A DNA stretch of 64,000 bases, from NCBI RefSeq assembly GCF_030013595.1, contig NZ_CP122768.1; one strand, written 5' to 3'. Position 1 is the stretch's first letter; every line of letters begins with the position of its first letter. This document shows, piece after piece, positions 29,458-42,562 of this stretch. This DNA comes from Escherichia coli. Its GTDB lineage: Bacteria > Pseudomonadota > Gammaproteobacteria > Enterobacterales > Enterobacteriaceae. The translations under genes were made by a program, and so were the position numbers. The notes beneath the pieces were generated by a model. That model was not told the origin of the DNA. It saw only the letters and a program-made list of their open reading frames with translations, and searched no databases.

Positions 29458-30039
29458 TTACCCTATAGGTGCTACTGGCCATTCAATATCCGGTGCAGTT
29501 GTTGTATTAACACGGTTCAGCAACACCCGATACTTTTTCCAGGCTTCCAGCAACGAGTTTTCTTCCTCCGTTGCGATTTCCAGATCTACAGCATCCTGAA
29601 GTGGCGCAATATGCTCACTGGCTACCTGCATCAGGTTGTTTTTTGTTTCTTCCGCCTCCCGGATCCGGAACAGTTTTTCTGCTTCCGTATCCTTCACCCA
29701 GGCTGTGCCGTTCCACTTCTGAAACTCCCCTTCCGGGGATAACCAGGTGACATTTTCCGGTAATGGGCCAAGTTCAGAAATAAATAACGCGTCGCCGGAA
29801 GCCACGTCATAAACCGTTTTACCCCGATGATCTTCAACGAGATGCCACGATGACTCATCACTGTTGAAAACAGCCACGAAGCCAGCCGGAATATCTGGCG
29901 GTGCAATATCGGTACTGTTTGCTGGCAGACCTGTATGAGGCGGAATATATGCATCACCTTCACCAATAAATTCATTAGTTCCGGCCAGCAGATTATAAAT
30001 TTTTATGGTCCGTGGTTGTTCACTCATTCTGAATGCCAT
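29458..30039 (-). CDS. tfa: tail fibre assembly protein
   Basis: 193 aa, lambda Tfa-like, immediately downstream of stf. Confidence 0.85.
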
Positions 30040-33000
30040 TATGCAAGCCTCACAATATAGTTAAATGCGATGTTTTTGACGGTGTTTTCCGCGTTACCAG
30101 CAGCGTTAACGGTGATGGTGTGTCCATGTGAACCAATCGCAACCGAGTGCGTATGCGCACCAATACCTACAGTATGTGCGTGTGCACCTGCGCTTGCAGC
30201 AGTACCCGATACAGAGTGCGTATGAGCGCCTGCAGAAGAAGTGTTAACACTGTATTTAGAATAATCAGGTGATCCACTTCCCGGAGCACCTTTGGTGCCA
30301 CCTGAAACAAATGTCATCGAATGGGTATGTGCACCGGCTGAAGCAGCCGTACCGCTAACACTATGGGTATGCGCACCAGTGTTATTCGTGGATTTAGTGC
30401 CGTAATCAAACGACGATGTGGTTTTCGTCCCCAAATCCGTACTGGATACGCTGGCGCTGTGGGTGTGTGATTTAATGCCGTCCTGTTCCTGAGACAATAC
30501 GGCTCGATCACTGGCGGGCTTGCCCTTAATCGTCCAGCCACGCATATCAGGGATCACGCCTGACGGATAAGCGGCTGCAAGTTTCGGGTAAGCAGATTTG
30601 TCAAAAGTCTGCCCCTGCATCAGGGCATAACCAGACGGAACGGTATCTGATGGCCACGGGATTGGTGCGCCGACTGGGTAGCTTTCTGGTGGAAGATTTT
30701 TCGAGGTATAAACTTCTGCCCAGTCTTCCTCAAAACCATAACCGTCTCTTGAAGAACGGTAGAACAGACCACCATTTCTGTAATGCGCCTTCATCTGCAA
30801 GGTCCGGCAACTTCCGACTCCGGTATAGAAGTTAACCAGAATATAGCTGTAGCCAGAGCGGGTGACATTATAAGCGCCTGATTCGGCATTCCAGGGAACG
30901 CCACCATCCGCATCGGCATATGTATCCGTTGCCCTTCTGGCAAAAGCAGCCACATGCGCGGCGGTTAAAGTAATATCTTTGGAACCATCAAACTCAACAC
31001 CAGAAACCCGTCTTGGCGTTTGCAGCTTTGTTGCTGTTAATGCATTACCGTTCAGACTTGCGGACAGTTTGGTTCCAATAACCAGTTCGCCGGTTGCGTT
31101 ATCAATAGCAAACGGTCTTAATGTATTCCAGCTACCATAAACATCACCTTGATTGGTAAGCAGCAGGTAAGTTTTAGCGCCATCATTACGCCATAATGCA
31201 CCATACTCCCCACCTATCATTCGAATCTGATTACCACCACGCGCTACAATTTCGTCTGTGGCAAAAAGTTTTTTGCACGACAAGTTATCGTTAACGATTA
31301 ACGAATGAGACTCATAAAAACCACGCCCACTCTTAAAATCAAGGATAACGTCCGCCGCGATACATTCAGTCGCCGGATTTGTTGCCCCAAACTTATAGGT
31401 CGTATCATTAACAACGAGATCAGCACCAGGTGCGGATATTGACAGGCCATCTTCGATAAACGCAAAAACAGGGAAAGCAGCGCCATCAACATAGAACACA
31501 GAGCGCAAATCATCGCCCTTATTACTCATCATTATTGAGTGGATGGCTCGTTCATTGTTTTGATATTGCCAGAACATTCCATAAGCATAACGCCCCCTGT
31601 CAGTACAGCCACCAGGCATAACAAATCCGTTAAACTCGCAGTTATTCATCGGATCGCCTGCGGTTCGCGTTGCCGTGGTGATAATGACCCTTGATGCCAG
31701 TTCGCTTACTGAGCCAGCAGAACGCATAACAGCAACAGGGTAATATTTTCCAGATGTTGCACCTGCAGGAGCGTTAACCCGCACATAACGCATACCACGC
31801 TTATCAGCAAAGTCTGTTTTACTGACCGCGTTAATGTTGTTCAGGAAGCGTCCCTTATCGGGTATATCAGCGCCGTTCTGGTCTTTCTGCAGACGTTTCT
31901 CTGCATTGTCATAGGCTGATTTTACTGCCTTTGGCGTTGCCGCCAGCGTTTCAGACGTACTGTTGGTCGCACTGCTGAGCTGTACTACCCCCTTTTTCGT
32001 CGTGCTCGCATCCTCAAGCGCCACGGCGGACGCAATATCCTCTGCCCGTTTTGCCGCTGTCTCGGCGCGCGTTGCCGCGGATTCCGCCGTACTTTTGCTC
32101 TGTGCTGCCGCCGTCGCACTGCCAGCTGCCTCTGTCGCCTTCGTGGATGCTGTCGTGGCGCTGCCCTTCGCTGCGGACGCTTGTCTGGTCGCCTCATCTT
32201 TTGAAGCAGACGCCGATGATGCCGATGACGCCGCCGAACTGGCGGACGATGCCGCTGCCGTTTTTGAGGATTCTGCACGGGTTTCCGACGCTTTCGCGTT
32301 CGTTTCGGATGTCTTCGCTGCGGAAGCTGACCTCGCTGCTGCCGTGGCCTGCTCAGTGGCTTCGCCAGCCTTCGTTGTGGCTGTTGAAGCGGATGATGCG
32401 GCGCTTTCTGCCGATTTTCCGGCGGCGGTGGCACTGGCTGAGGCCTGCCCGGCACTTGTTGACGCGGCACTGGCAGACGACGCAGCCGCTGTTTTTGAGC
32501 CTGCCGCAGCTGAGGCGCTCTGTCCCGCTGCCGTCTCAGAAGACCTGGCGTTCGTCTCGGACGTTTTTGCCGCCTTCGCGGAATTTCCTGCCGCCGTTGC
32601 CGAGGAAGCTGCGCTACTGGCGCTCAAGGATGCGTTCGTTTCTGATGATTTCGCTGCCTCTTTTGAGGCCGCCGCATCCCGGGCTGAGGTGGCAGCTTCT
32701 GACGCCTTTGTGGTCGCTGCGGATGCAGAAGTGGCTGCAGATTTTTGTGACGCTGCCGCATTCGTTTCTGACGTTTTCGCCGCAGCGGCACTGGTGGCCG
32801 CCGCGCTTTTTGAGGACTCTGCAGCGGCAGCACTTTTTGATGCTTCAGTGGCCTTTGTTGATGCCGTTCCTGCGCTGGAAGACGCTGACTGAGCCGACGA
32901 AGCGGCCTGTCCGGCTGACGTGCTGGCTGCGCGTGCTGAGCCTGCAGCATCAGTCGCATGGGTTGCCGCCTCACGGGCAGATGTGCCGGCATCGCCGGCT

Positions 33001-33395
33001 GACTTCTTCGCGGCTGCCGTGTTCTGTGCCACCACGGACGCGTTACGCGCCACCTCTTCCACCATCAGCTCAAAACGGCGCAGTGCCTCCGGACGGGCAT
33101 CATCCTCCGTCATGGCACCGAGAAAATCATTCAGCGTACCGGGTCGGGAATCTTCATACACTGTGATAGTCCCGGCATGTGACGGCGGGAATCCTTCCAC
33201 CAACAGAATAACGCTGTACTGACCGTACTCAACGTCCATACTGTAACGCCCGGCTTCATCCGGATTTTCTGAGGCCAGCGTGTTCACCACCACCGTGGTG
33301 CTGTTACGTTTTGCTTTCAGCTGGATTGTGCAGTTCTGTACCGGTTTTCCTGTGCCGTCTTTCAGTACACCTGAAATCTTTACTGCCATATTCAC
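30039..33395 (-). CDS. stf: side tail fibre protein with long Ala/Ser/Thr-rich repeat region
   Basis: 1118 aa; lambda Stf-like N-terminus, ~350 aa low-complexity tract, C-terminal repeated HTHS motifs. Confidence 0.85.
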
Positions 33396-33453
33396 CCCAC
33401 AAAAAAGCCCGCCTGAACCGGCGGGCTGTCATAACACTGTGTTACCTGGCTAA

Positions 33454-34053
33454 TCAGAATTTATAACCGACACCCACGATGAACCCGTCAGTGCGCCAGT
33501 CACCGCTGCCGGAGCCTTCATAAGCGACGTCAACGGCCACGGATTCGGTCGGGTTAAACTGCACGCCAGCTCCCCACGCCAGAGACGTGTTGCTGTGGCG
33601 ACCGTCATCACTTCCGGTCAGCACATCGTGCGTTTTCCCCTTGTTGTCAGTTACGCGGATATAATCTCCGGAGAAAGTCGACACACGGCTGTAAGCCATA
33701 CCCGCCATCGCATACGCGCTGAACCATTCATTCACGCGCACAGACGGCCCCGCCATCACGCTGAACCAGCGGTTACGCACGGAATCTTCATGCCAGCGGG
33801 TATCGCTGTAATGCGTTTTTTGCTCATCTTCAGCGTTGGTATAACTGAATGACGTAATCAGCCCCAGCGTGTCCGTAAACTCATAACGGTATTTCACGTT
33901 AATCCCGTTCAGATTATCGCTGCCGGGAGCGTTCGTACGGGCATGAAGATACCCTGCGCTCAGTGTGGCCTGCTGCTCAGACGCCCATGCAGGCGCACCG
34001 GATACGGCCAGACAGATGGCTGCGGACAAAATGGCTGCACAAACTTTACGCAT
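33454..34053 (-). CDS. lom: Lom/Ail-family outer membrane protein
   Basis: 199 aa; signal peptide; C-terminus YEGSGSGDWRTDGFIVGVGYKF as in lambda Lom. Confidence 0.85.
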   Translation of the reverse strand: MRKVCAAILSAAICLAVSGAPAWASEQQATLSAGYLHARTNAPGSDNLNGINVKYRYEFTDTLGLITSFSYTNAEDEQKTHYSDTRWHEDSVRNRWFSVMAGPSVRVNEWFSAYAMAGMAYSRVSTFSGDYIRVTDNKGKTHDVLTGSDDGRHSNTSLAWGAGVQFNPTESVAVDVAYEGSGSGDWRTDGFIVGVGYKF

Positions 34054-34072
34054 AATTACCTCTCGCTTTTCT

Positions 34073-34101
34073 GCAATAAAAAAGGCGCCATTTCTGGCGC
34101 C
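34073..34101 (-). terminator. intrinsic terminator downstream of J
   Basis: minus-strand hairpin GGCGCCAGAAATGGCGCC followed by TTTTTTATT. Confidence 0.5.
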
Positions 34102-34120
34102 CGTATATGGGTTATAAAAT

Positions 34121-37100
34121 TCAGCTGATACTGATGCCTGCGGTGGCTTTCTTCATCACCACAACCAGCAAATCGCTGATACTTGCTGTGGGATACCAGT
34201 TATTTACCAGCCATGCTGACACCGAAAACTCCAGTGTCATGTGACCGTGACCGGCAGGCATATCAATAACACCACTGTAAATCAGCGTATTATCCAGCGC
34301 GGTACGGTTATAAATTTCAGCACCGTTTTTCCGTACTATCAGACGGCATGAGGAGTAAATATCAGTATGCTCTTTCTCATGTTTAGCGCCGCTGAATGCC
34401 ACCGCCGGAATAACAATCTGCCGGTCAAACGGCTGATCGTCATAAACCCTGACGGTGATGGTCCCTGATGGCCACCGTTCCGGTGCACGGGAGTCCCGGG
34501 GGAAAGCTTTGCCCACTGTTTTAACGAGATCGCCTTCAATCTGGTTCGCGGACAGTTTTCCCAGAACCCGACAGTTCTCGTTAATCGTGACGTTGTTGAG
34601 CGTCCCGGAGTTCGCATTCACGTTACCGCTGATATCGGCATTTTTCGCCGTCAGCCGCCCGTCCGGTGTCAGGGAAAATGCCGGTGGATTTCCGCCGCTG
34701 GTAATGGTGGGAGCCGTCAGGCGTTTCAGGAACACGTCGTTCATGAATATCTGATCGCCCTGACCAACAAACATCGGCTTTGTGTTGCCATTCGCAGGAT
34801 TAATCATCGCAATCCGGTCAGCAGCCAGAAGCACCTGACTCTGCATACCTGCTGGCGTATTCTCAATACCGGCTCCGATACCCGCAATATAAAGGCGTCC
34901 GTCCTTCATCTGCTGCAGTTTCACGGCCCACATGCTGTTCAGGTTATTATTTGTATCAACCTGAACTTTCTGTATCTGCTGGATTGCCGCGCTCTGATTT
35001 TCCAGTTTCTTATTGACGGTCTGTGTGATTTCATTGCTGACATCCGTAATGGACGTCCTGATTTCAGCCAGGTCAGGCGCAAGCTGATCGTTATCAATCT
35101 GCGTCCACAGCTCCTGAGCCAGATGGGTTTTCCCTATCTCGCCTTTGAAAAAATCCAGATAGCCGGATGCGTCATCACTCGGCTGACCGACAGCCTCCAC
35201 GAATGCCGATTTGCCAACAGTGTTCACACTGCGAACGTAAAAATAATAATCATGGCCCGGCTTAATATTGATACTGGCAGCTATCCAGTACAGCGCCGTA
35301 CCAAGATAGCGCGCTGTGGTTTCAACCTGCCTGATATCCGCAATCCGCTTTTCCGAGAACCAGAACTCAAACTGTACCGTCGGATCATAAACGGCAAGAT
35401 GCGGCGTGGCGGTTATCTGAAAATAGCCCGGCGTCAGCTCAATCCGCGACGGTGCTGCCGGTGCGGCAATCCGGAACGATACCGATGCCGGATCGCCCTG
35501 CTGTCCCCACGCATTTACCGCCCGGACTGTCAGCCTGTAGTTCCCCAGCGCCAGCTGCCTGAAGCGGTATGTGGTTTCCGTCGTCCGGGCCGTGCTGACC
35601 AGCCGCTCACTGCCGTCATCGGCGGCCACGGTCAGGCGAAGCATAAAGCTCACACCCTTCACCACCTTCGGCGTGTCCCAGCGCGCCAGCACCTGATACT
35701 CCCCACTGTCTGCGGTGACTTCTGCGGTCAGGTGCTGCACCGCTGGCGGCGTGACACCATTCACCGTGCCGCTCTGGTCGCCGTCAAAGTGCGCCCCGTT
35801 ATCCACGATGGCTTCTTTCTCCGGTACATGCTGCACGGCAGTGATGGCATACGTGCCGTCATCGTTCTCACGGATACTCACACAGCGGAACAGGCGCTGG
35901 CGCAACGTCGGCAGCTTCAGCCCCCACACGCTGTATTCTGCAACGCCGTCAGGAACACGGCTCACTTTCACCTTCACACCGTCGGTGACGGACTGAACCT
36001 CCACGCTGACCGGATTGCCACTTCCGTCAACCAGGCTTATCAGCGTGGTACCGGAGGATGGCAGCGTGATTTCACGGTCGAGCGTCAGCGTCCGGGTCTG
36101 GCTGTTCACCGCCAGCACGCGCCCGCCGGTGCTGATACCGGCATAGTCATCATCGCAGATTTCAATGACATCGCCCGGCACATGGCGAAGCCCTTCTGCG
36201 CCCACGCTGAAATCCACGGTCTGCGTTTCCAGCAGTTCCGTTTTAATCAGCCACAGCCCGGCGCGGTGTGCCTGCCCCCGGCTGGTACAGCCAAAGGCAT
36301 CCATCTTCGTAACATTACGACCGTAACGGGCAATGGCCTGCGTATCTTCAACAAGCTCTGTCGCCGTCTCCCAGCCGTTATCCGGGTCAATCCAGTTCAC
36401 CTCAACGGCATTATGGCGGTCCTTCAGGGCGCTGAAGCTGTAGCGGAACGGCGCGCCATCATCCGGCATCACCACATTACTGCGGTTATAGGTCCACACC
36501 TTATCCGACGGTCGGTCCTGCACGAACGTCAGCGTCTGCCCGTTCCATACCGGCATACAGCGCATCGCCGAGCAGAAATCGCTGAGCACATCCCACGCCT
36601 TACGTTGTGTGGTCAGCCAGGCATTACAGGTGATGCGCGGCTCCGTGCCGCCAAAACCGTCCGGCACCGACTGGTCGCAGTACTGGCCGATGACATACAG
36701 CGCCCATTTATCCACATCTGCCGCACCAAGACGTTTCCCCATGCCGTAGCGCGGATGGGTCAGCATATCCCACAGACACCAGGCCATGTTGTTGCTGTAT
36801 GCTGGCTTAAACGTTCCATCCCAGATACCGCTGTATTGCCGCGTCTGCGGGTTATAGTTCGACGGCACCTGCAGAATGCGCCCGCGCAGATGATAATTAC
36901 GGCTCACCTGCTGGCTGCCGAACTGCTCCGAGTCCACCTGCACGCCGACCAGTGCCGTGTTCGGGTAGCACTGTTTCACATCTATAATTTCGGTGTATGA
37001 CGACCAGAGCGTTTTGTTCTGCAGCTGGTCTGTGGTGCTGTCCGGCGTCATCCTGCGCATCCGGATACTGAACGGGCGCGGCGGCAGGTTATCCACCACC

Positions 37101-37600
37101 ACCGAGGCCAGATACTGCGAGGTGGTTTTGCCCTTAATGGTGATGTCTTTTTCCGTCACCCAGCCACCGTTACGTTGTATCTGAACCAGCAGGCGGACTT
37201 CCGATGGATTCCTGTCACCCTTTGAGGTGGTTTCCACCAGTGCCTGCACACCGAAGGTAAAGCGCAGTCGGTCGATGTTTGCCGACGTGATGGCGCGGGT
37301 GATCGGCGTGTCGTATTTCACTTCCGTACCCAGCACCGTCTCGGAGCCGGAGGATTCAAATCCCTCCGGCGGAGTCTGCTCCTGCTCACCAGCCCGGAAC
37401 ACCACCGTGACACCGGCGATGTTGGTATTCCCCTCACTGTCCAGCACCGGCGTACTGTTCAGCAGCACGCTTTTTAATCCATCCACCGGACCTTCAATCG
37501 GCCCTTCACTGATGGCATCAATCACACTCAGCAACTGCGTGGATTTCAGGTTGTCCTTCGCTTCGCGCGGGGTATGCCCCTTACTGCTGCCTTTACCCAT
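34121..37600 (-). CDS. J: tail tip host-specificity protein J
   Basis: 1159 aa; N-terminal ~900 aa near-identical to remembered lambda J; C-terminal part divergent. Confidence 0.9.
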
Positions 37601-37671
37601 TCGTCACGCTCCATAAACGACAAAACCGCCCGCAGGCGGTTTCACATAAAACATTTTTCATCAGCGACCAA

Positions 37672-38331
37672 TCACCACAACCTGACCACCATCACCTTCA
37701 TCTGCTGTGCTGATCTCCTGAGATACCACCCGCGACCCCACACGCATTTCACCGTACAGAACGGGCAGGACATTGCCCTGGGCAACCATATTATCCAGTG
37801 AAGAAAAATAGGTGTTCTGTTTGCCGTTATCCGTTGTCTGTGTGCGGGGGTTTTGGGTTTAGGGGCCAGCATCTGCGCCACACCACCGAGCACCATACTG
37901 GCACCGAGAGAAAACAGGATACCGGTCATACCACCGGCCCCAATGGCTGCCCCCCATGCTGCAAGGGTGGCTCCGGCAGTAAAGAATGATCCGGCAATGG
38001 CGGCAGCCCCCAGAACAATCTGGAATACGCCCCCTGACTTGGCCCCGGCGACTCTGGGAACAATATGAATCACAGCGCCGTCAGGCAGAGTCTCATGTAA
38101 CTGCGCCGTTAACCCGGACGTGCTGACGTCCCGCCCGGCAATCCGTACCTGATACCAGCCGTCGCTCAGTTTCTGACGAAACGCCGGGAGCTGTGTGGCC
38201 AGTGCGCGGATGGCTTCAGCCCCCGTTTTCACACGAAGGTCGATGCGGCGGCCAAATCGTTGCAAATCCCCGTAAAGGCAGATGCGTGCCATTCCCGGTG
38301 ACGCCAGAGGGAGTGTGTGCGTCGCTGCCAT
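37672..38331 (-). CDS. I: tail tip assembly protein I, C-terminus frameshifted relative to lambda gpI (possible pseudogene)
   Basis: first ~160 aa match lambda gpI; after a C-run near 37845-37850 the ORF leaves the frame that encodes the conserved ...SLDNMVAQGNVLPVLYGEMRVGSRVVSQEISTADEGDGGQVVVIGR (stop at 37661). Confidence 0.7.
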   Translation of the reverse strand: MAATHTLPLASPGMARICLYGDLQRFGRRIDLRVKTGAEAIRALATQLPAFRQKLSDGWYQVRIAGRDVSTSGLTAQLHETLPDGAVIHIVPRVAGAKSGGVFQIVLGAAAIAGSFFTAGATLAAWGAAIGAGGMTGILFSLGASMVLGGVAQMLAPKPKTPAHRQRITANRTPIFLHWIIWLPRAMSCPFCTVKCVWGRGWYLRRSAQQMKVMVVRLW

Positions 38332-38972
38332 TTGTCGGTGTACCTCTCTCGTTTGCTCAGTTGTTCAGGAATATGGTGCAGCAGCTCGCTGTCACCACAG
38401 TAAATGGCGGCATGATTCGGCACCGATGAACCAAAACAGCACAGCAGCACATCGCCCGGCTGCGCCGCTGACAACGGCACCTGATACAGCCCTGTGGCCT
38501 CCAGATTATCCAGATAGAGATTCTGACCGTTACGCCACCAGTCATCCTCGCGATGAAAATCCGGCATCTCAATCCCCGCCAGATGGTAAGCATCCCGGAA
38601 CAGCGTGTAACAGTCCGTCACCCCGTGCTCAAAGCGCCGCCCGGTGAGATGCGGCACACAGCGGAACTTGTGAATCGCCCCCCGGCAGACCAGCCACCAC
38701 GGCAAATCACTCTGCACCTGCAGCCGCCGGTCAGCCTCACTCAGCCAGGGCAGACCACCGGGATGACTGTGGACCAGTGCCACAATCTCACCCTGCATCT
38801 CTGCCTGCAGCCAGTCCTCCGGAGCCATCCGGAAATAATCCTCCGGCTCACCGGAAATATTCACGCAGGGAAAATATCTTTCCCCCTCCGGCGCTCTCAC
38901 CACGAAGCCGCACGACTCCGCTGGCGCACATCGCCGGGCGTGCGCCAGAATCGCTGATTCTGTCTCTGTCAT
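38229..38972 (-). CDS. K: tail tip assembly protein K (MPN + NlpC/P60 domains)
   Basis: lambda gpK-like from MTETESAIL; true start may be internal (lambda K is annotated shorter); 3' end overlaps I. Confidence 0.85.
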   Translation of the reverse strand: MTETESAILAHARRCAPAESCGFVVRAPEGERYFPCVNISGEPEDYFRMAPEDWLQAEMQGEIVALVHSHPGGLPWLSEADRRLQVQSDLPWWLVCRGAIHKFRCVPHLTGRRFEHGVTDCYTLFRDAYHLAGIEMPDFHREDDWWRNGQNLYLDNLEATGLYQVPLSAAQPGDVLLCCFGSSVPNHAAIYCGDSELLHHIPEQLSKRERYTDKWQRRTHSLWRHREWHASAFTGICNDLAAASTFV

Positions 38973-38976
38973 GGGA

Positions 38977-39675
38977 TTACTGCGAAAGTTTGTTAATGGA
39001 AAGGAAGCCGCCAAAGTTGCCGACGTTATTGCGAAACTTACAGCCGCTCAGGCATTTGCTGCATTTATCCTTCGTGATATCGGACGTCGGCTGGTCATAT
39101 TCATCCGCGACTGCCGGACCGTGATAACCGCACTCATCACCGCGATAGGTCCAGGTGCAGGTGTTGGCCAGCATGATACGTCCCGGAAAAACAGCGCCAT
39201 CCGTTTCCGTCGGCGTGGACAGTACAAAGGAGGCACTCACCGCGCTCAGTTCGCTGCACTGCTCGATGCGCCAGCGGCTGATCACCTCCTGCTCCGGATC
39301 GGCGTCACTGTTTCCGTTGACGAAGTTCACCGCATCCAGAAAACGGGCGTAAACCTTACGCCGGACCACCGTTCCGCCGACCAGACTCTGCAGATCTTCC
39401 GCCATCCCGGTGACCATACCGTACAGGTTAGAAACCGTCAGCGTGGGGCGCGTACTGGTGCCTTTGCCATTCAGTTCAAAACCACTCCCCTGAATGGGAT
39501 ACGGCTGATACTGTCGCCCCTGCCAGGTGACCGGCACACCTTTTTCGTTCTGCTCATTACAGAAAAAATAACGTTCTCCACCGACCTCTGTCAGGTCGAT
39601 TTCCCAGAGCACCACGCTGGCCGACTGCTCCGCACGGGTGCATTCATTCAGTGTTTCCTGCCGGATATCCTGCAT
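38977..39675 (-). CDS. L: tail tip protein L
   Basis: 232 aa, lambda gpL-like, Cys-rich C-terminus. Confidence 0.9.
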   Translation of the reverse strand: MQDIRQETLNECTRAEQSASVVLWEIDLTEVGGERYFFCNEQNEKGVPVTWQGRQYQPYPIQGSGFELNGKGTSTRPTLTVSNLYGMVTGMAEDLQSLVGGTVVRRKVYARFLDAVNFVNGNSDADPEQEVISRWRIEQCSELSAVSASFVLSTPTETDGAVFPGRIMLANTCTWTYRGDECGYHGPAVADEYDQPTSDITKDKCSKCLSGCKFRNNVGNFGGFLSINKLSQ

Positions 39676-40004
39676 CAGTTCACCACCTGTTCAAACTCTG
39701 CGCTGAACTCAACACGCAGCATACTGACCCGCGACGACCATTTTGCGCAGGTCACCTTTATCTGCCGCCACTCATAAGGCGGCGTCCACAGAAAGGCTTT
39801 CCAGCCCCCGTGCTCTTCCAGAAACGACTCCAGTACCGTGGCCTCCTCACGGGGGACAGAAAGCGTCACGCTGTACGTTTTCAGGTTGGCATTCAGCCCG
39901 GCAGGCGCTCGCTGGGAATAGCCATCACCAAAGCGCACCTTTCTTACAGAAGGGGCCGAAGCCACATCCATACCGGGTTTCACTTTCCAGCGGAAGGTTT
40001 TCAT
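39675..40004 (-). CDS. M: tail tip protein M
   Basis: 109 aa, lambda gpM-like. Confidence 0.9.
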   Translation of the reverse strand: MKTFRWKVKPGMDVASAPSVRKVRFGDGYSQRAPAGLNANLKTYSVTLSVPREEATVLESFLEEHGGWKAFLWTPPYEWRQIKVTCAKWSSRVSMLRVEFSAEFEQVVN

Positions 40005-42562
40005 CGTCCACCTCCGGAGAACAGTCCACCATCACGCATCTGTGTCTGAATTTCATCACGGGCACCCTTGCGGGCCATGTCATACACCGCCTTCAGAGCA
40101 GCCGGACCTATCTGCCCGTTCGTGCCGTCGTTGTTAATCACCACATGGTTATTCTGCTCAAACGTCCCGGACGCCTGCGACCGGCTGTCAGCCAGACTGC
40201 CCGGTGTACCGACATAACCACCGGTGGCATAGCCGCGCATCAGCCGGTAGAGATTCCCCACGCCAATCCGGCTGGTTGCCTCCTTTGTGAAGACAAATTC
40301 ACCACGGTGAACAATCCCCGCTGGCTCATATTTGCCGCCGGTTCCCGTAAATCCTCCGGTTGCAAAATGGAATTTCGCCGCAGCGGCCTGAATGGCTGTA
40401 CCGCCTGACGCGGATGCGCCGCCACCAACAGCCCCGCCAATAGCGCTGCCGATACTCCCGACAATCCCCACCATTGCCTGCTTAAGCAGAATTTCTGTCA
40501 TCATGGACAGCACGGAACGGGTGAAGCTGCGCCAGTTCTGCTCACTGCCGGTCAGCATCGCCGCCATATTCTGTGCAATACCATCAAAGGTCTGCGTGGC
40601 TGCACTTTTTACCTGCGACATACTGTCCGTGGCGCTCTCTTCCCACTCACTCCAGCCGGACTTCAGGCCTGCCATCCAGCTCCCGCGAAGCTGGTCTTCA
40701 GCCGCCCAGGTCTTTTTCTGCTCTGACATGACGTTATTCAGCGCCAGCGGATTATCGCCATACTGTTCCTTCAGGCGCTGTTCCGTGGCTTCCCGTTCTG
40801 CCTGCCGGTCAGTCAGCCCCCGGCTTTTCGCATCAATGGCGGCCCGTTTTGCCCGTTGCTGCTGTGCGAATTTATCCGCCTGCTGCGCCAGCGCGTTCAG
40901 GCGCTCCTGATACGTAACCTTGTCGCCAAGTGCAGCCAGCTGGAGTTTGTACTCCAGCGTCTCATCTTTATGCGCCAGCAGGGATTTCTCCTGTGCAGAC
41001 AGCTGGCGACGTTGCGCCGCCTCCTCCAGTACCGCGAACTGACTCTCCGCCTTCCACAAATCCCGGCGCTGCTGGCTGATTTTCTCATTTGCTCCGGCAT
41101 GCTTCTCCAGCGTCCGGAGTTCAGCCTGAAGCGTCAGCAGGGCAGCATGAGCACTGTCTTCCTGACGATCGCCCGCAGACACCTTCACGCCGGACTGTTT
41201 CGGCTTTTTCAGCGTCGCTTCATAGTCCTTTTTCGCCGCCGCCATCAGCGTGTTGTAATCTGCCTGCAGAATTTTCCCGTCCTTCAGTGCCTTGTTCAGT
41301 TCTTCCTGACGGGCGGTATATTTCTCCAGCGGCGTCTGCAGCCGTTCGTAAGCTTTCTGCGCCTCTTCGGTATATTTCAGCCGTGACGCTTCAGTATCGC
41401 TCTGCTGCTGCGCATTTTTGTCCTGTTGACTCTGCTGTTCAGCCTTCTTTCTCGCGGCTTCAAGCGCAAGACGGGCCTTTTCACGATCATCCCAGTAACG
41501 CGCCCGCGCTTCATCGTTAACAAAATAATCATCCTTGCGCAGACTCCAGATGTCGTCCGCTTTCTTAAACGCAGCCTCTGCCTTAATCAGCATCTCCTGA
41601 GCGGTATCAGGACGACCAATATCCAGCACCGCATCCCACATGGATTTGAATGCCCGCGCTGTCCTGTCTGCCCAGGTCTCCAGCGTACCCATGTTCTCTT
41701 TCAGGCGGCGGGTCTGGTCATCAAACCCTTTCGTCGCGGCCTCGTTCGCCGCCTGCAATGCCCCGGCTTCATCGCCGGAACGCTGCAACTGAGCAACATA
41801 CGCAATCTGCTCCGCCGTCACGTTATGGAACTGGCGTGCCATCGCTGTCAGCCCTGACGTCGGGTCTGTGGTCAGCTTCCCGAAGGCTTCAGCGACCTTG
41901 TCCACCTCCACGCCGGATGCAGAGGAGAAACGCGCCACACTCTGGCTGATGGATGCAATCTGAGCCTCACCGCTTACTCCCGCCTTAACCAGTGCGCTGA
42001 GTGACTCGCTGGTCTGGTTAAACGTCAGCCCTGCCGCCTGCCCGGCTCTGGACAGGACCAGCATACGATCTGCCGTCAGACCCGACTGATTGCCGGAAAG
42101 GACCAGCGTTTTGTTGAAATCGGACAGGGTTGAGTTGCCCTGATACCAGGCATACGCCAGCGCACCGGTCGCCACCGCCAGCGAGGTGGCCCCGACCATC
42201 GGCAGGGTGATCGCACCGGCAAGCCCCCTGAACATGGGGATCATCCCGCCGAAGGAGTCCTTCACCTGACCACCCTGTTGCAGCAGGATCAGCCACGGAC
42301 TTTGCCCGCCTGCAAGCTGCGTGGCCACGTCGGTGAACTGCGCAGGCAGCATACGCATGGCAGCTTTATACTGCCCGACGGAAATCCCCGCTTTCTGTGC
42401 AGCCAGCGCCTGTCGGCTCAGCGACTGTTCAACGACTGCCGCTGTTTTTTTCGCATCACTTTCCGTACCGGAAAAATGACGCCTGACTCTGGCCATCTGC
42501 TCGTCAAATCTGGCCGCATCCAGACTTAAATCAACGACCAGATCGCCTACCGGTTCAGCCAT
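40001..42562 (-). CDS. H: tail tape measure protein H
   Basis: 853 aa, same length as lambda gpH; coiled-coil rich. Confidence 0.9.
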   Translation of the reverse strand: MAEPVGDLVVDLSLDAARFDEQMARVRRHFSGTESDAKKTAAVVEQSLSRQALAAQKAGISVGQYKAAMRMLPAQFTDVATQLAGGQSPWLILLQQGGQVKDSFGGMIPMFRGLAGAITLPMVGATSLAVATGALAYAWYQGNSTLSDFNKTLVLSGNQSGLTADRMLVLSRAGQAAGLTFNQTSESLSALVKAGVSGEAQIASISQSVARFSSASGVEVDKVAEAFGKLTTDPTSGLTAMARQFHNVTAEQIAYVAQLQRSGDEAGALQAANEAATKGFDDQTRRLKENMGTLETWADRTARAFKSMWDAVLDIGRPDTAQEMLIKAEAAFKKADDIWSLRKDDYFVNDEARARYWDDREKARLALEAARKKAEQQSQQDKNAQQQSDTEASRLKYTEEAQKAYERLQTPLEKYTARQEELNKALKDGKILQADYNTLMAAAKKDYEATLKKPKQSGVKVSAGDRQEDSAHAALLTLQAELRTLEKHAGANEKISQQRRDLWKAESQFAVLEEAAQRRQLSAQEKSLLAHKDETLEYKLQLAALGDKVTYQERLNALAQQADKFAQQQRAKRAAIDAKSRGLTDRQAEREATEQRLKEQYGDNPLALNNVMSEQKKTWAAEDQLRGSWMAGLKSGWSEWEESATDSMSQVKSAATQTFDGIAQNMAAMLTGSEQNWRSFTRSVLSMMTEILLKQAMVGIVGSIGSAIGGAVGGGASASGGTAIQAAAAKFHFATGGFTGTGGKYEPAGIVHRGEFVFTKEATSRIGVGNLYRLMRGYATGGYVGTPGSLADSRSQASGTFEQNNHVVINNDGTNGQIGPAALKAVYDMARKGARDEIQTQMRDGGLFSGGGR

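What the first reader, a model, noticed from the sequence alone, without database searches (positions are those of the whole stretch)
37661..38331. Frameshift in tail assembly gene I at a homopolymer run
The gene I ORF matches lambda gpI for about 160 residues, then near a C-run (plus-strand GCGGGGG at ~37845-37850) leaves the frame that still encodes the conserved gpI C-terminus and stops at 37661. The track ORF instead ends at 37672 with ~55 unrelated residues. Either the prophage is tail-defective (cryptic), or this is a sequencing error or phase-variable tract.
Basis: partly seen in the sequence, partly recalled or inferred. Interest (0 to 1): 0.45.

Follow-up and report, generated by a model that had tools for sequence, protein, structure and literature searches.

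The report
One-base frameshift in prophage tail gene I
A lambda-like prophage in an E. coli chromosome has lost one C from a run of six in its tail-tip gene I, which as written destroys the last 61 residues of the protein; this is an ordinary pseudogene-or-assembly-error lesion, not a new mechanism.

Summary
Gene I (minus strand, 38331..37672) follows lambda gpI for 162 residues. At a C5 run (37850-37846; G5 on the plus strand) it leaves the frame that encodes authentic residues 163-223, which ends at 37661. Adding one C gives a 223-aa protein 220/223 identical to lambda gpI.

The in-frame C6 parent allele is common: 569 of 5,426 complete E. coli genomes, 4 phage records, 18 IMG/VR contigs and 8 metagenome contigs. 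At least 20 genomes match the window over 211 nt except for that one C. C5 is rare: this window, E. coli 19A14 (annotated there as "frameshifted"), phage mEp332 and one error-rich Logan contig.

The lost part is most of the piece of gpI that is built into the virion tail tip, so the written sequence predicts no functional tails. All 23 other late genes and 24 of 25 chromosomal genes checked are full-length in one frame. The prophage is therefore not an old, decayed one.

Sequence alone cannot separate a recent real deletion (about 0.5) from a homopolymer miscall (about 0.35). Phase variation is not supported. A leaky -1 ribosomal slip is possible but weak. Low interest; a known kind of lesion.

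The parts
37672..38331 (-). Gene I as written: a 219-aa 0-frame ORF made of 162 authentic gpI residues followed by 57 unrelated residues.
   Evidence: Pfam PF06805 (Lambda_tail_I) matches residues 14-97.
37846..37850 (-). C5 run (G5 on the plus strand): the site of the missing base. The in-frame parent allele has C6 here.
37661..37846 (-). The -1 frame segment that encodes authentic gpI residues 163-223 plus the stop codon (RTQTTDNGKQNTYFSSLDNMVAQGNVLPVLYGEMRVGSRVVSQEISTADEGDGGQVVVIGR*).
   Evidence: repaired translation; 1-223 aligns to PDB 8iyk chain I.
37851..37876 (-). Variant segment GCCCCTAAACCCAAAAC and mosaic junction. Upstream of about 37876 the gene is lambda/WP5-W18-like. Downstream it is the 'type A' haplotype shared with mEp332 and at least 20 E. 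coli genomes.
   Evidence: Alignments. Difference map..
38232..38972 (-). Gene K (C40 peptidase), upstream neighbour. It is intact and overlaps the start of I.
   Evidence: q1-247, single frame, 96% identity.
34121..37600 (-). Gene J (central tail fibre, 1159 aa), downstream neighbour. It is intact. gpJ is the structural partner of the lost gpI C-terminus.
   Evidence: PMC10721106.
37623..37642 (-). Conserved GC-rich hairpin (AAACCGCC-TGCG-GGCGGTTT) in the I-J spacer. It is unaffected by the lesion.
   Evidence: Sequence. It is conserved in all aligned relatives. A 'terminator' feature lies under the matched stretch in the phage 434 and phage 21 records.

Best explanation
The feature is a single-base deletion (C6 to C5 on the coding strand) in gene I of an otherwise intact lambda-like prophage. 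The prophage sits at the lambda attachment site next to ybhB/bioA in an E. coli chromosome.

As written, translation leaves the authentic frame after residue 162, reads 57 unrelated codons and stops 11 nt before the normal stop. The product keeps the N-terminal PF06805 domain and the hydrophobic stretch. It lacks residues 163-223, about two thirds of the segment (135-223) that forms the trimeric plug in the tail-tip lumen. That segment binds gpJ by beta-sheet augmentation and holds the C-terminus of the tape-measure protein.

I infer that the allele is null or nearly null for tail-tip assembly. On induction the prophage would then make DNA-filled heads but few or no infectious particles. The exceptions would be rare C5-to-C6 revertants, recombinants with another prophage's I gene, or background -1 slippage.

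Shown: the lesion, its parent allele, and the intactness of the neighbouring genes. Inferred: loss of function. Not decidable here: whether the missing base is in the DNA or only in the assembly. I favour a real, recent mutation, but only slightly.
For: - Lesion and repair. Repaired protein 220/223 identical to lambda gpI, full length versus PDB 8iyk.
- Parent allele: 569 E. coli genomes have the same 41-mer with one extra C. At least 20 genomes match the window over 211 nt except for that C. C6 also occurs in the phage records PhiR49_1 and vB_EcoM-606R7, in 18 IMG/VR contigs and in 8 metagenome contigs.
- Recurrence of C5 in other records: 19A14, where PGAP calls the gene 'frameshifted', mEp332 and Logan ERR3986896.
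- Importance of the lost part: gpI residues 135-223 are the modelled plug that contacts gpJ and gpH (PMC10721106; PMC12617516, residues 134-222). Gene I was defined by conditional-lethal mutants (classical lambda genetics, from my own knowledge).
- Assembly quality: 47 other genes (45.2 kb) with 143 homopolymer runs of 5 nt or more are all in frame.
Against: - A G/C hexamer is the classic place for an undercall in long-read assemblies, and no reads are available.
- The two database proteins that carry the same alternative-frame stretch come from contigs full of split tail genes. This shows the segment does collect assembly or decay indels.
- The same C5 call sits in the record of mEp332, a phage that forms plaques (PMC3442831). 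If that call is real, the lesion cannot be fully lethal. If it is an error, the site is error-prone.
- A lone lesion in about 38 kb of otherwise intact prophage is what an artefact would also look like.
Confidence: 0.5

Rival explanations
1. Sequencing or assembly artefact. The DNA has C6 and gene I is intact. The consensus dropped one base of the G/C hexamer, possibly helped by reads from a paralogous prophage I gene being mixed at this mosaic spot.
For: - The homopolymer context is right.
- C5 is very rare against C6 in every collection searched, as expected for sporadic errors.
- Error-rich contigs show indels in this same 70-nt segment.
- I is the only lesion in an otherwise complete prophage.
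- The lesion lies 25 nt from a mosaic junction unique to this window. E. coli genomes carry a median of 2 copies of this region, which invites consensus mixing.
Against: - None of the 143 other homopolymer runs of 5 nt or more in 47 verified genes is out of frame, so this is not an error-prone assembly.
- A systematic error at this site should show up in more than 1 of 570 genomes.
Confidence: 0.35
2. A real C5 allele that stays partly functional. A -1 slip of peptidyl- or aminoacyl-tRNA-Pro on C_CC.C (ACC CCC GCA), or RNA polymerase slippage on the run, restores ...KPKTPRTQTTDNGKQ... in a small share of products. Only three gpI copies are needed per virion, so that may be enough.
For: - The 0-frame reads ACC|CCC|GCA, a C_CC.C tetramer in the correct register, and a -1 shift gives exactly the authentic sequence.
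- C_CC.C is one of the six tetramers that respond to a stimulator in E. coli (PMC4066793).
- The identical C5 segment is in the record of plaque-forming phage mEp332, propagated in MG1655 (PMC3442831).
Against: - Without a stimulator such tetramers give about 0.15% against a 0.11% background (PMC4066793).
- The 106 nt downstream fold no better than shuffles (z = -0.56).
- The shift is not conserved: 569 C6 to 1 C5.
- The mEp332 record has other frame breaks (K N-terminus, lom, stf), so its C5 may be an error or a laboratory lesion.
Confidence: 0.1
3. Phase-variable (contingency) tract that switches tail production on and off.
For: Only the fact that the indel lies in a G/C homopolymer, and that C5 has been recorded in a few unrelated prophage backgrounds.
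Against: - The tract has 6 bases, shorter than known contingency tracts (my own knowledge).
- Its length is C6 in 569 of 570 E. coli genomes, with no C7 or C4 at the bottom of the ranking. It is C6 in 18 IMG/VR contigs (C5: none; longer or shorter runs were not scanned there) and in 8 of 8 metagenome contigs, where run lengths from 4 to 9 were allowed.
- Many alleles, lambda included, have no homopolymer here at all (ACTCCCCG).
Confidence: 0.03

Closest known systems
Lambda gene I / gpI (tail tip assembly protein I, UniProt 223 aa; PDB 8iyk, 8iyl, 8k35, 8xcg, 9e7m)
   Same: K-I-J synteny. Residues 1-162 match lambda gpI apart from two substitutions (A158P, R159K). After adding one C the protein is 220/223 identical over its full length.
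   Different: As written, the last 61 residues are replaced by 57 unrelated ones. The short segment around the lesion is a different allele (APKPKTPRT against APKARTPRI), which creates the C run.
The 'frameshifted' tail assembly protein pseudogene WAZ55_RS08010 of E. coli 19A14 (NZ_CP147046)
   Same: Identical 41-nt segment with C5. PGAP annotates it as a frameshifted pseudogene.
   Different: It lies in a different prophage (Qin/ydfJ site, a different tape-measure gene, and head genes only 21-24% identical to the lambda type) and in a different I haplotype upstream and downstream.
Phage mEp332 gene I (PV340541.1)
   Same: The same C5 segment, and a 580-nt tract with only 3 differences from the window. 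The whole late region is collinear at about 96% identity.
   Different: Its 5' half of I is the short allele. The phage is reported to form plaques (PMC3442831). Its record also has frame breaks in K (N-terminus), lom and stf.
The lambda PaPa stf frameshift (laboratory lambda lacking side tail fibres)
   Same: A frameshift that disables a tail gene in an otherwise functional lambda genome (cited in PMC10721106).
   Different: stf is dispensable for plaque formation, whereas I is an essential tail gene. In this window stf is intact (1118 aa).
Lambda G/GT programmed -1 frameshift
   Same: A -1 shift in a lambda tail-assembly gene would be needed to read through this lesion.
   Different: G/GT has a conserved heptamer (G_GGA_AAG, from my own knowledge) and is conserved across phages. 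Here there is only a weak tetramer, no stimulator and no conservation.

Membership tests
Lambda gpI family (tail tip assembly protein I) | N-terminal Lambda_tail_I domain (PF06805) | tested here: met
   residues 14-97, E = 1.9e-28.
Lambda gpI family (tail tip assembly protein I) | Gene order L-K-I-J in a lambda-type tail module | tested here: met
   L, K, I and J homologues are collinear on the minus strand from 39675 down to 34136.
Lambda gpI family (tail tip assembly protein I) | C-terminal plug region (lambda residues 135-223) encoded in frame with the N-terminus | tested here: not met
   the frame is lost after residue 162, and residues 163-223 are encoded in the -1 frame. The feature is met only after inserting one C.
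Programmed -1 ribosomal frameshift site | Slippery motif in the correct register | tested here: inconclusive
   Only a Z_ZZ.N tetramer (C_CC.C in ACC CCC GCA) is present, with no X_XXY_YYZ heptamer. The tetramer is weak without a stimulator (PMC4066793).
Programmed -1 ribosomal frameshift site | Downstream stimulatory structure | tested here: not met
   minimum free energy -26.6 kcal/mol, z = -0.56 against shuffles.
Programmed -1 ribosomal frameshift site | The two-frame arrangement is conserved among homologues | tested here: not met
   homologues with this segment are in frame (C6) in 569 of 570 E. coli genomes and in all 26 environmental contigs.
Phase-variable homopolymer (contingency) locus | Long tract with length polymorphism among close relatives | tested here: not met
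   The tract is 6 nt. It is C6 in 569 of 570 genomes, and no C7 or C4 was seen.
Homopolymer sequencing or assembly artefact | Other homopolymer indels in the same assembly | tested here: not met
   47 genes with 143 runs of 5 nt or more are all in frame. The single other frame difference (ybhM-like gene) is not at a homopolymer.
Homopolymer sequencing or assembly artefact | Raw reads disagree with the consensus | not testable with these tools
   No reads are available, and the source assembly is not in the collections searched. The best E. coli match to the prophage is 97%.

The most novel reading that the evidence does not exclude
The C5 allele is a 'saved' indel. Enough gpI is made by -1 slippage of tRNA-Pro on ACC_CCC_GCA, or by transcriptional slippage on the run, for a lambda-like phage to stay viable. 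This would explain why the plaque-forming phage mEp332 carries the identical lesion. Gene I would then be a natural case of translational correction of a frameshift in an essential virion gene needed in only three copies per particle.
Probability: 0.07. Interest if true: 0.45.

Novelty: already known. Interest (0 to 1): 0.12.

Why it matters
Mainly for annotation and prophage scoring. With this one base missing, the prophage should be called tail-defective, or the assembly corrected; otherwise it looks like a complete, inducible lambda relative at the lambda attachment site.

The only wider point is small. The same C6-to-C5 change has been recorded in several unrelated backgrounds, including a phage reported to form plaques. 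It would therefore be worth checking once whether the lesion is real in that phage and how leaky it is.

Tried and rejected
- **Lambda as the reference for a "homopolymer slip".** Rejected: lambda has ACTCCCCG, so the true parent had to be found. It is the APKPKTPRT allele with C6.
- **Finding the source genome.** It is not among 5,426 complete E. coli genomes or 50,697 phage records (best 97.4% and 96.9% over 800 nt). The chromosomal flank is 99.9% identical to two pig isolates, which did not rank among the best matches to the prophage.
- **Searching the 5.8-billion protein set with the alternative-frame tail.** Only two hits, both from contigs with many split tail genes. At first they looked like naturally compensated frameshifts. 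I do not rely on them because their contexts are error-rich or decayed.
- **Shared descent of C5 between the window and mEp332.** A 580-nt near-identical tract is shared, but the same haplotype with C6 is in at least 20 genomes. Descent and independent loss cannot be told apart.
- **NCBIfam.** It has no model for this protein.
- **Papers describing the PV3405xx records or their sequencing method.** None found.
- **Separate expression of the 42-aa ORF that starts at the internal ATG (37789).** Considered and dropped: there is no Shine-Dalgarno-like sequence upstream in the sequence.

Full report
**1. Observation**

On the minus strand the window has a 219-aa ORF (38331..37672) and, in another frame, a short ORF ending at 37661. 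The short ORF reads as the lambda gpI C-terminus. The DNA at the switch is AAACCCAAAACCCCCGCACACAG, with the C5 run at 37850-37846. On the plus strand that is GCGGGGG at 37844-37850.

Translating as written gives 162 residues of authentic gpI and then 57 unrelated residues. Inserting one C into the run gives a 223-aa protein that is 220/223 identical to lambda gpI and ends at the normal stop.

**2. What the lesion is relative to**

Against lambda, 434 and most close relatives, the window shows a cluster of five substitutions plus a 1-nt gap within about 22 nt (GCACCGAAAGCCAGAACTCCCCGT against GCCCCTAAACCCAAAAC-CCCCGC). Lambda itself has no homopolymer at this spot.

An allele-specific 41-nt search found the true parent:
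- 569 of 5,426 complete E. coli genomes carry the same segment with one more C (C6) and are annotated as an intact tail assembly protein. Only one genome (19A14) has C5.
- The phage collection gives four C6 records (including PhiR49_1 and vB_EcoM-606R7) and one C5 record, mEp332.
- IMG/VR has 18 C6 contigs and no C5 contig.
- A metagenome scan that allowed run lengths from 4 to 9 found 8 contigs, all C6.
- At least 20 E. coli genomes are identical to the window over 211 nt (37665-37875) apart from the extra C.

The lesion is therefore a C6-to-C5 deletion in a common, functional allele.

**3. Context**

- The chromosomal part (rhlE to bioA and ybhB) is E. coli, 98.7-99.9% identical to the listed genomes.
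- The prophage abuts ybhB/bioA, which I recognise from my own knowledge of the K-12 map as the lambda attachment site.
- It is collinear with a prophage at the same place in strain 181.1.
- Using the annotated proteins of strains 181.1 and NY1601 as probes, all 23 other late genes (nu1, A, W, B, C, D, E, FI, FII, Z, U, V, G, T, H, M, L, K, J, lom, stf, tfa and the AraC-type gene) match full-length in one frame. So do 24 of 25 chromosomal genes. Only I is split.
- The other frame difference, in a ybhM-like gene, is not at a homopolymer.
- The visible lysis and early ORFs have lambda-like lengths.
- The 47 verified genes contain 143 homopolymer runs of 5 nt or more, all in frame.

This is not an old, decayed prophage, and it is not an obviously error-prone assembly.

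**4. Consequence for the protein**

Pfam's Lambda_tail_I domain covers only residues 14-97 and is untouched. The part of gpI seen in the virion is residues 135-223. It forms a trimeric plug in the tail-tip lumen, joins gpJ by three beta-sheet augmentations and holds the C-terminal helix of gpH (PMC10721106; PMC12617516 gives residues 134-222). The frameshift removes residues 163-223.

Gene I was defined by conditional-lethal tail mutants (classical lambda genetics, from my own knowledge). I therefore infer that the written allele cannot build tail tips.

**5. Real mutation or artefact?**

- **For an artefact.**
  - A G/C hexamer is a typical undercall site.
  - C5 is sporadic in every collection searched.
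  - Two database proteins with the same alternative-frame stretch come from contigs riddled with split tail genes, so this segment does collect such indels.
  - The lesion also sits 25 nt from a mosaic junction unique to this window, in a gene present about twice per E. coli genome. That could confuse consensus polishing.
- **For a real change.**
  - The rest of the window shows no homopolymer errors.
  - A systematic error at this site should appear in more than 1 of 570 genomes.
  - Prophage genes are free to take such hits while the phage is a lysogen.

I put a real change at about 0.5-0.55 and an artefact at about 0.35.

**6. Other readings**

- **Phase variation** is not supported. The tract is short and its length is essentially invariant.
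- **A -1 ribosomal slip on C_CC.C** (ACC CCC GCA) would recreate exactly ...KPKTPRTQTT.... However, such tetramers give only about 0.15% without a stimulator (PMC4066793), the downstream RNA folds no better than shuffles, and the arrangement is not conserved.
- **The one loose end is mEp332.** It is a lambdoid phage kept as an MG1655 lysogen and titrated by plaque assay (PMC3442831), and its record carries the identical C5. That record also has frame breaks in the K N-terminus, lom and stf. Its C5 may be a laboratory lesion, an error, or a sign of leakiness.

**7. Verdict**

This is an ordinary single-base frameshift in a prophage tail gene, of a kind that annotation pipelines already flag: PGAP labels the same lesion 'frameshifted' in 19A14. 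Novelty is nil and interest is low.

Noticed in passing
window 12514-12901 (-), difference at about 12798: A ybhM-like Bax-inhibitor-family gene differs from strain NY1601 by one extra A (CAACCAGCAG against CAACC-GCAG). The 129-aa NY1601 protein therefore maps to two frames in the window. The site is not a homopolymer, and which version is ancestral was not determined.
   Followed up: partly
window 56080-56235 (-): Two prophage-borne tRNA genes, tRNA-Thr(TGT) and tRNA-Asn(GTT), lie between the Q-like gene (56510-57133) and the holin gene (55746-55961).
   Followed up: no
window 29498-29696 (-): A full-length Rfam IS009 match (228 bits) lies inside the tail fibre assembly gene tfa.
   Followed up: no
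window 37295-37876: Gene I is a mosaic. It is lambda/WP5-W18-like upstream of about 37876. From there a 580-nt tract running into the start of J differs from phage mEp332 at only 3 positions, against about 4% divergence elsewhere. No other genome searched has this 5'/3' combination.
   Followed up: yes
L034 (mEp332, PV340541.1) 33404-42373: Besides I, the mEp332 record shows frame breaks relative to strain 181.1 proteins in the N-terminus of K, in lom and in stf. All head genes and the other tail genes are single-frame.
   Followed up: partly
L043 2085-2378 (Logan ERR3986896); L044 3001-3297 (GCA_045610345.1): Two database proteins enter the same alternative frame of gene I and return to the authentic frame about 20 codons later. 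One has C5 plus an extra T; the other has C6 plus an extra CA and an extra G. Both contigs have several split tail genes, so they look like error-rich or decaying copies rather than selected compensations.
   Followed up: partly
window 30039-33395 (-): The side tail fibre gene stf is one intact 1118-aa ORF, unlike laboratory lambda where it is split by a frameshift. J is 1159 aa against 1132 aa in lambda.
   Followed up: no
window 3-1679 (+): A long ORF in a 34% G+C stretch at the left edge of the window, annotated only as a hypothetical protein in related genomes. It looks like an island next to rhlE.
   Followed up: no
PMC3442831 (literature, phage mEp332): Of ten lambdoid phages tested, mEp332 lysates had the largest excess of non-encapsidated over encapsidated phage DNA (about 100-fold). 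No link to the gene I lesion can be drawn from this.
   Followed up: no
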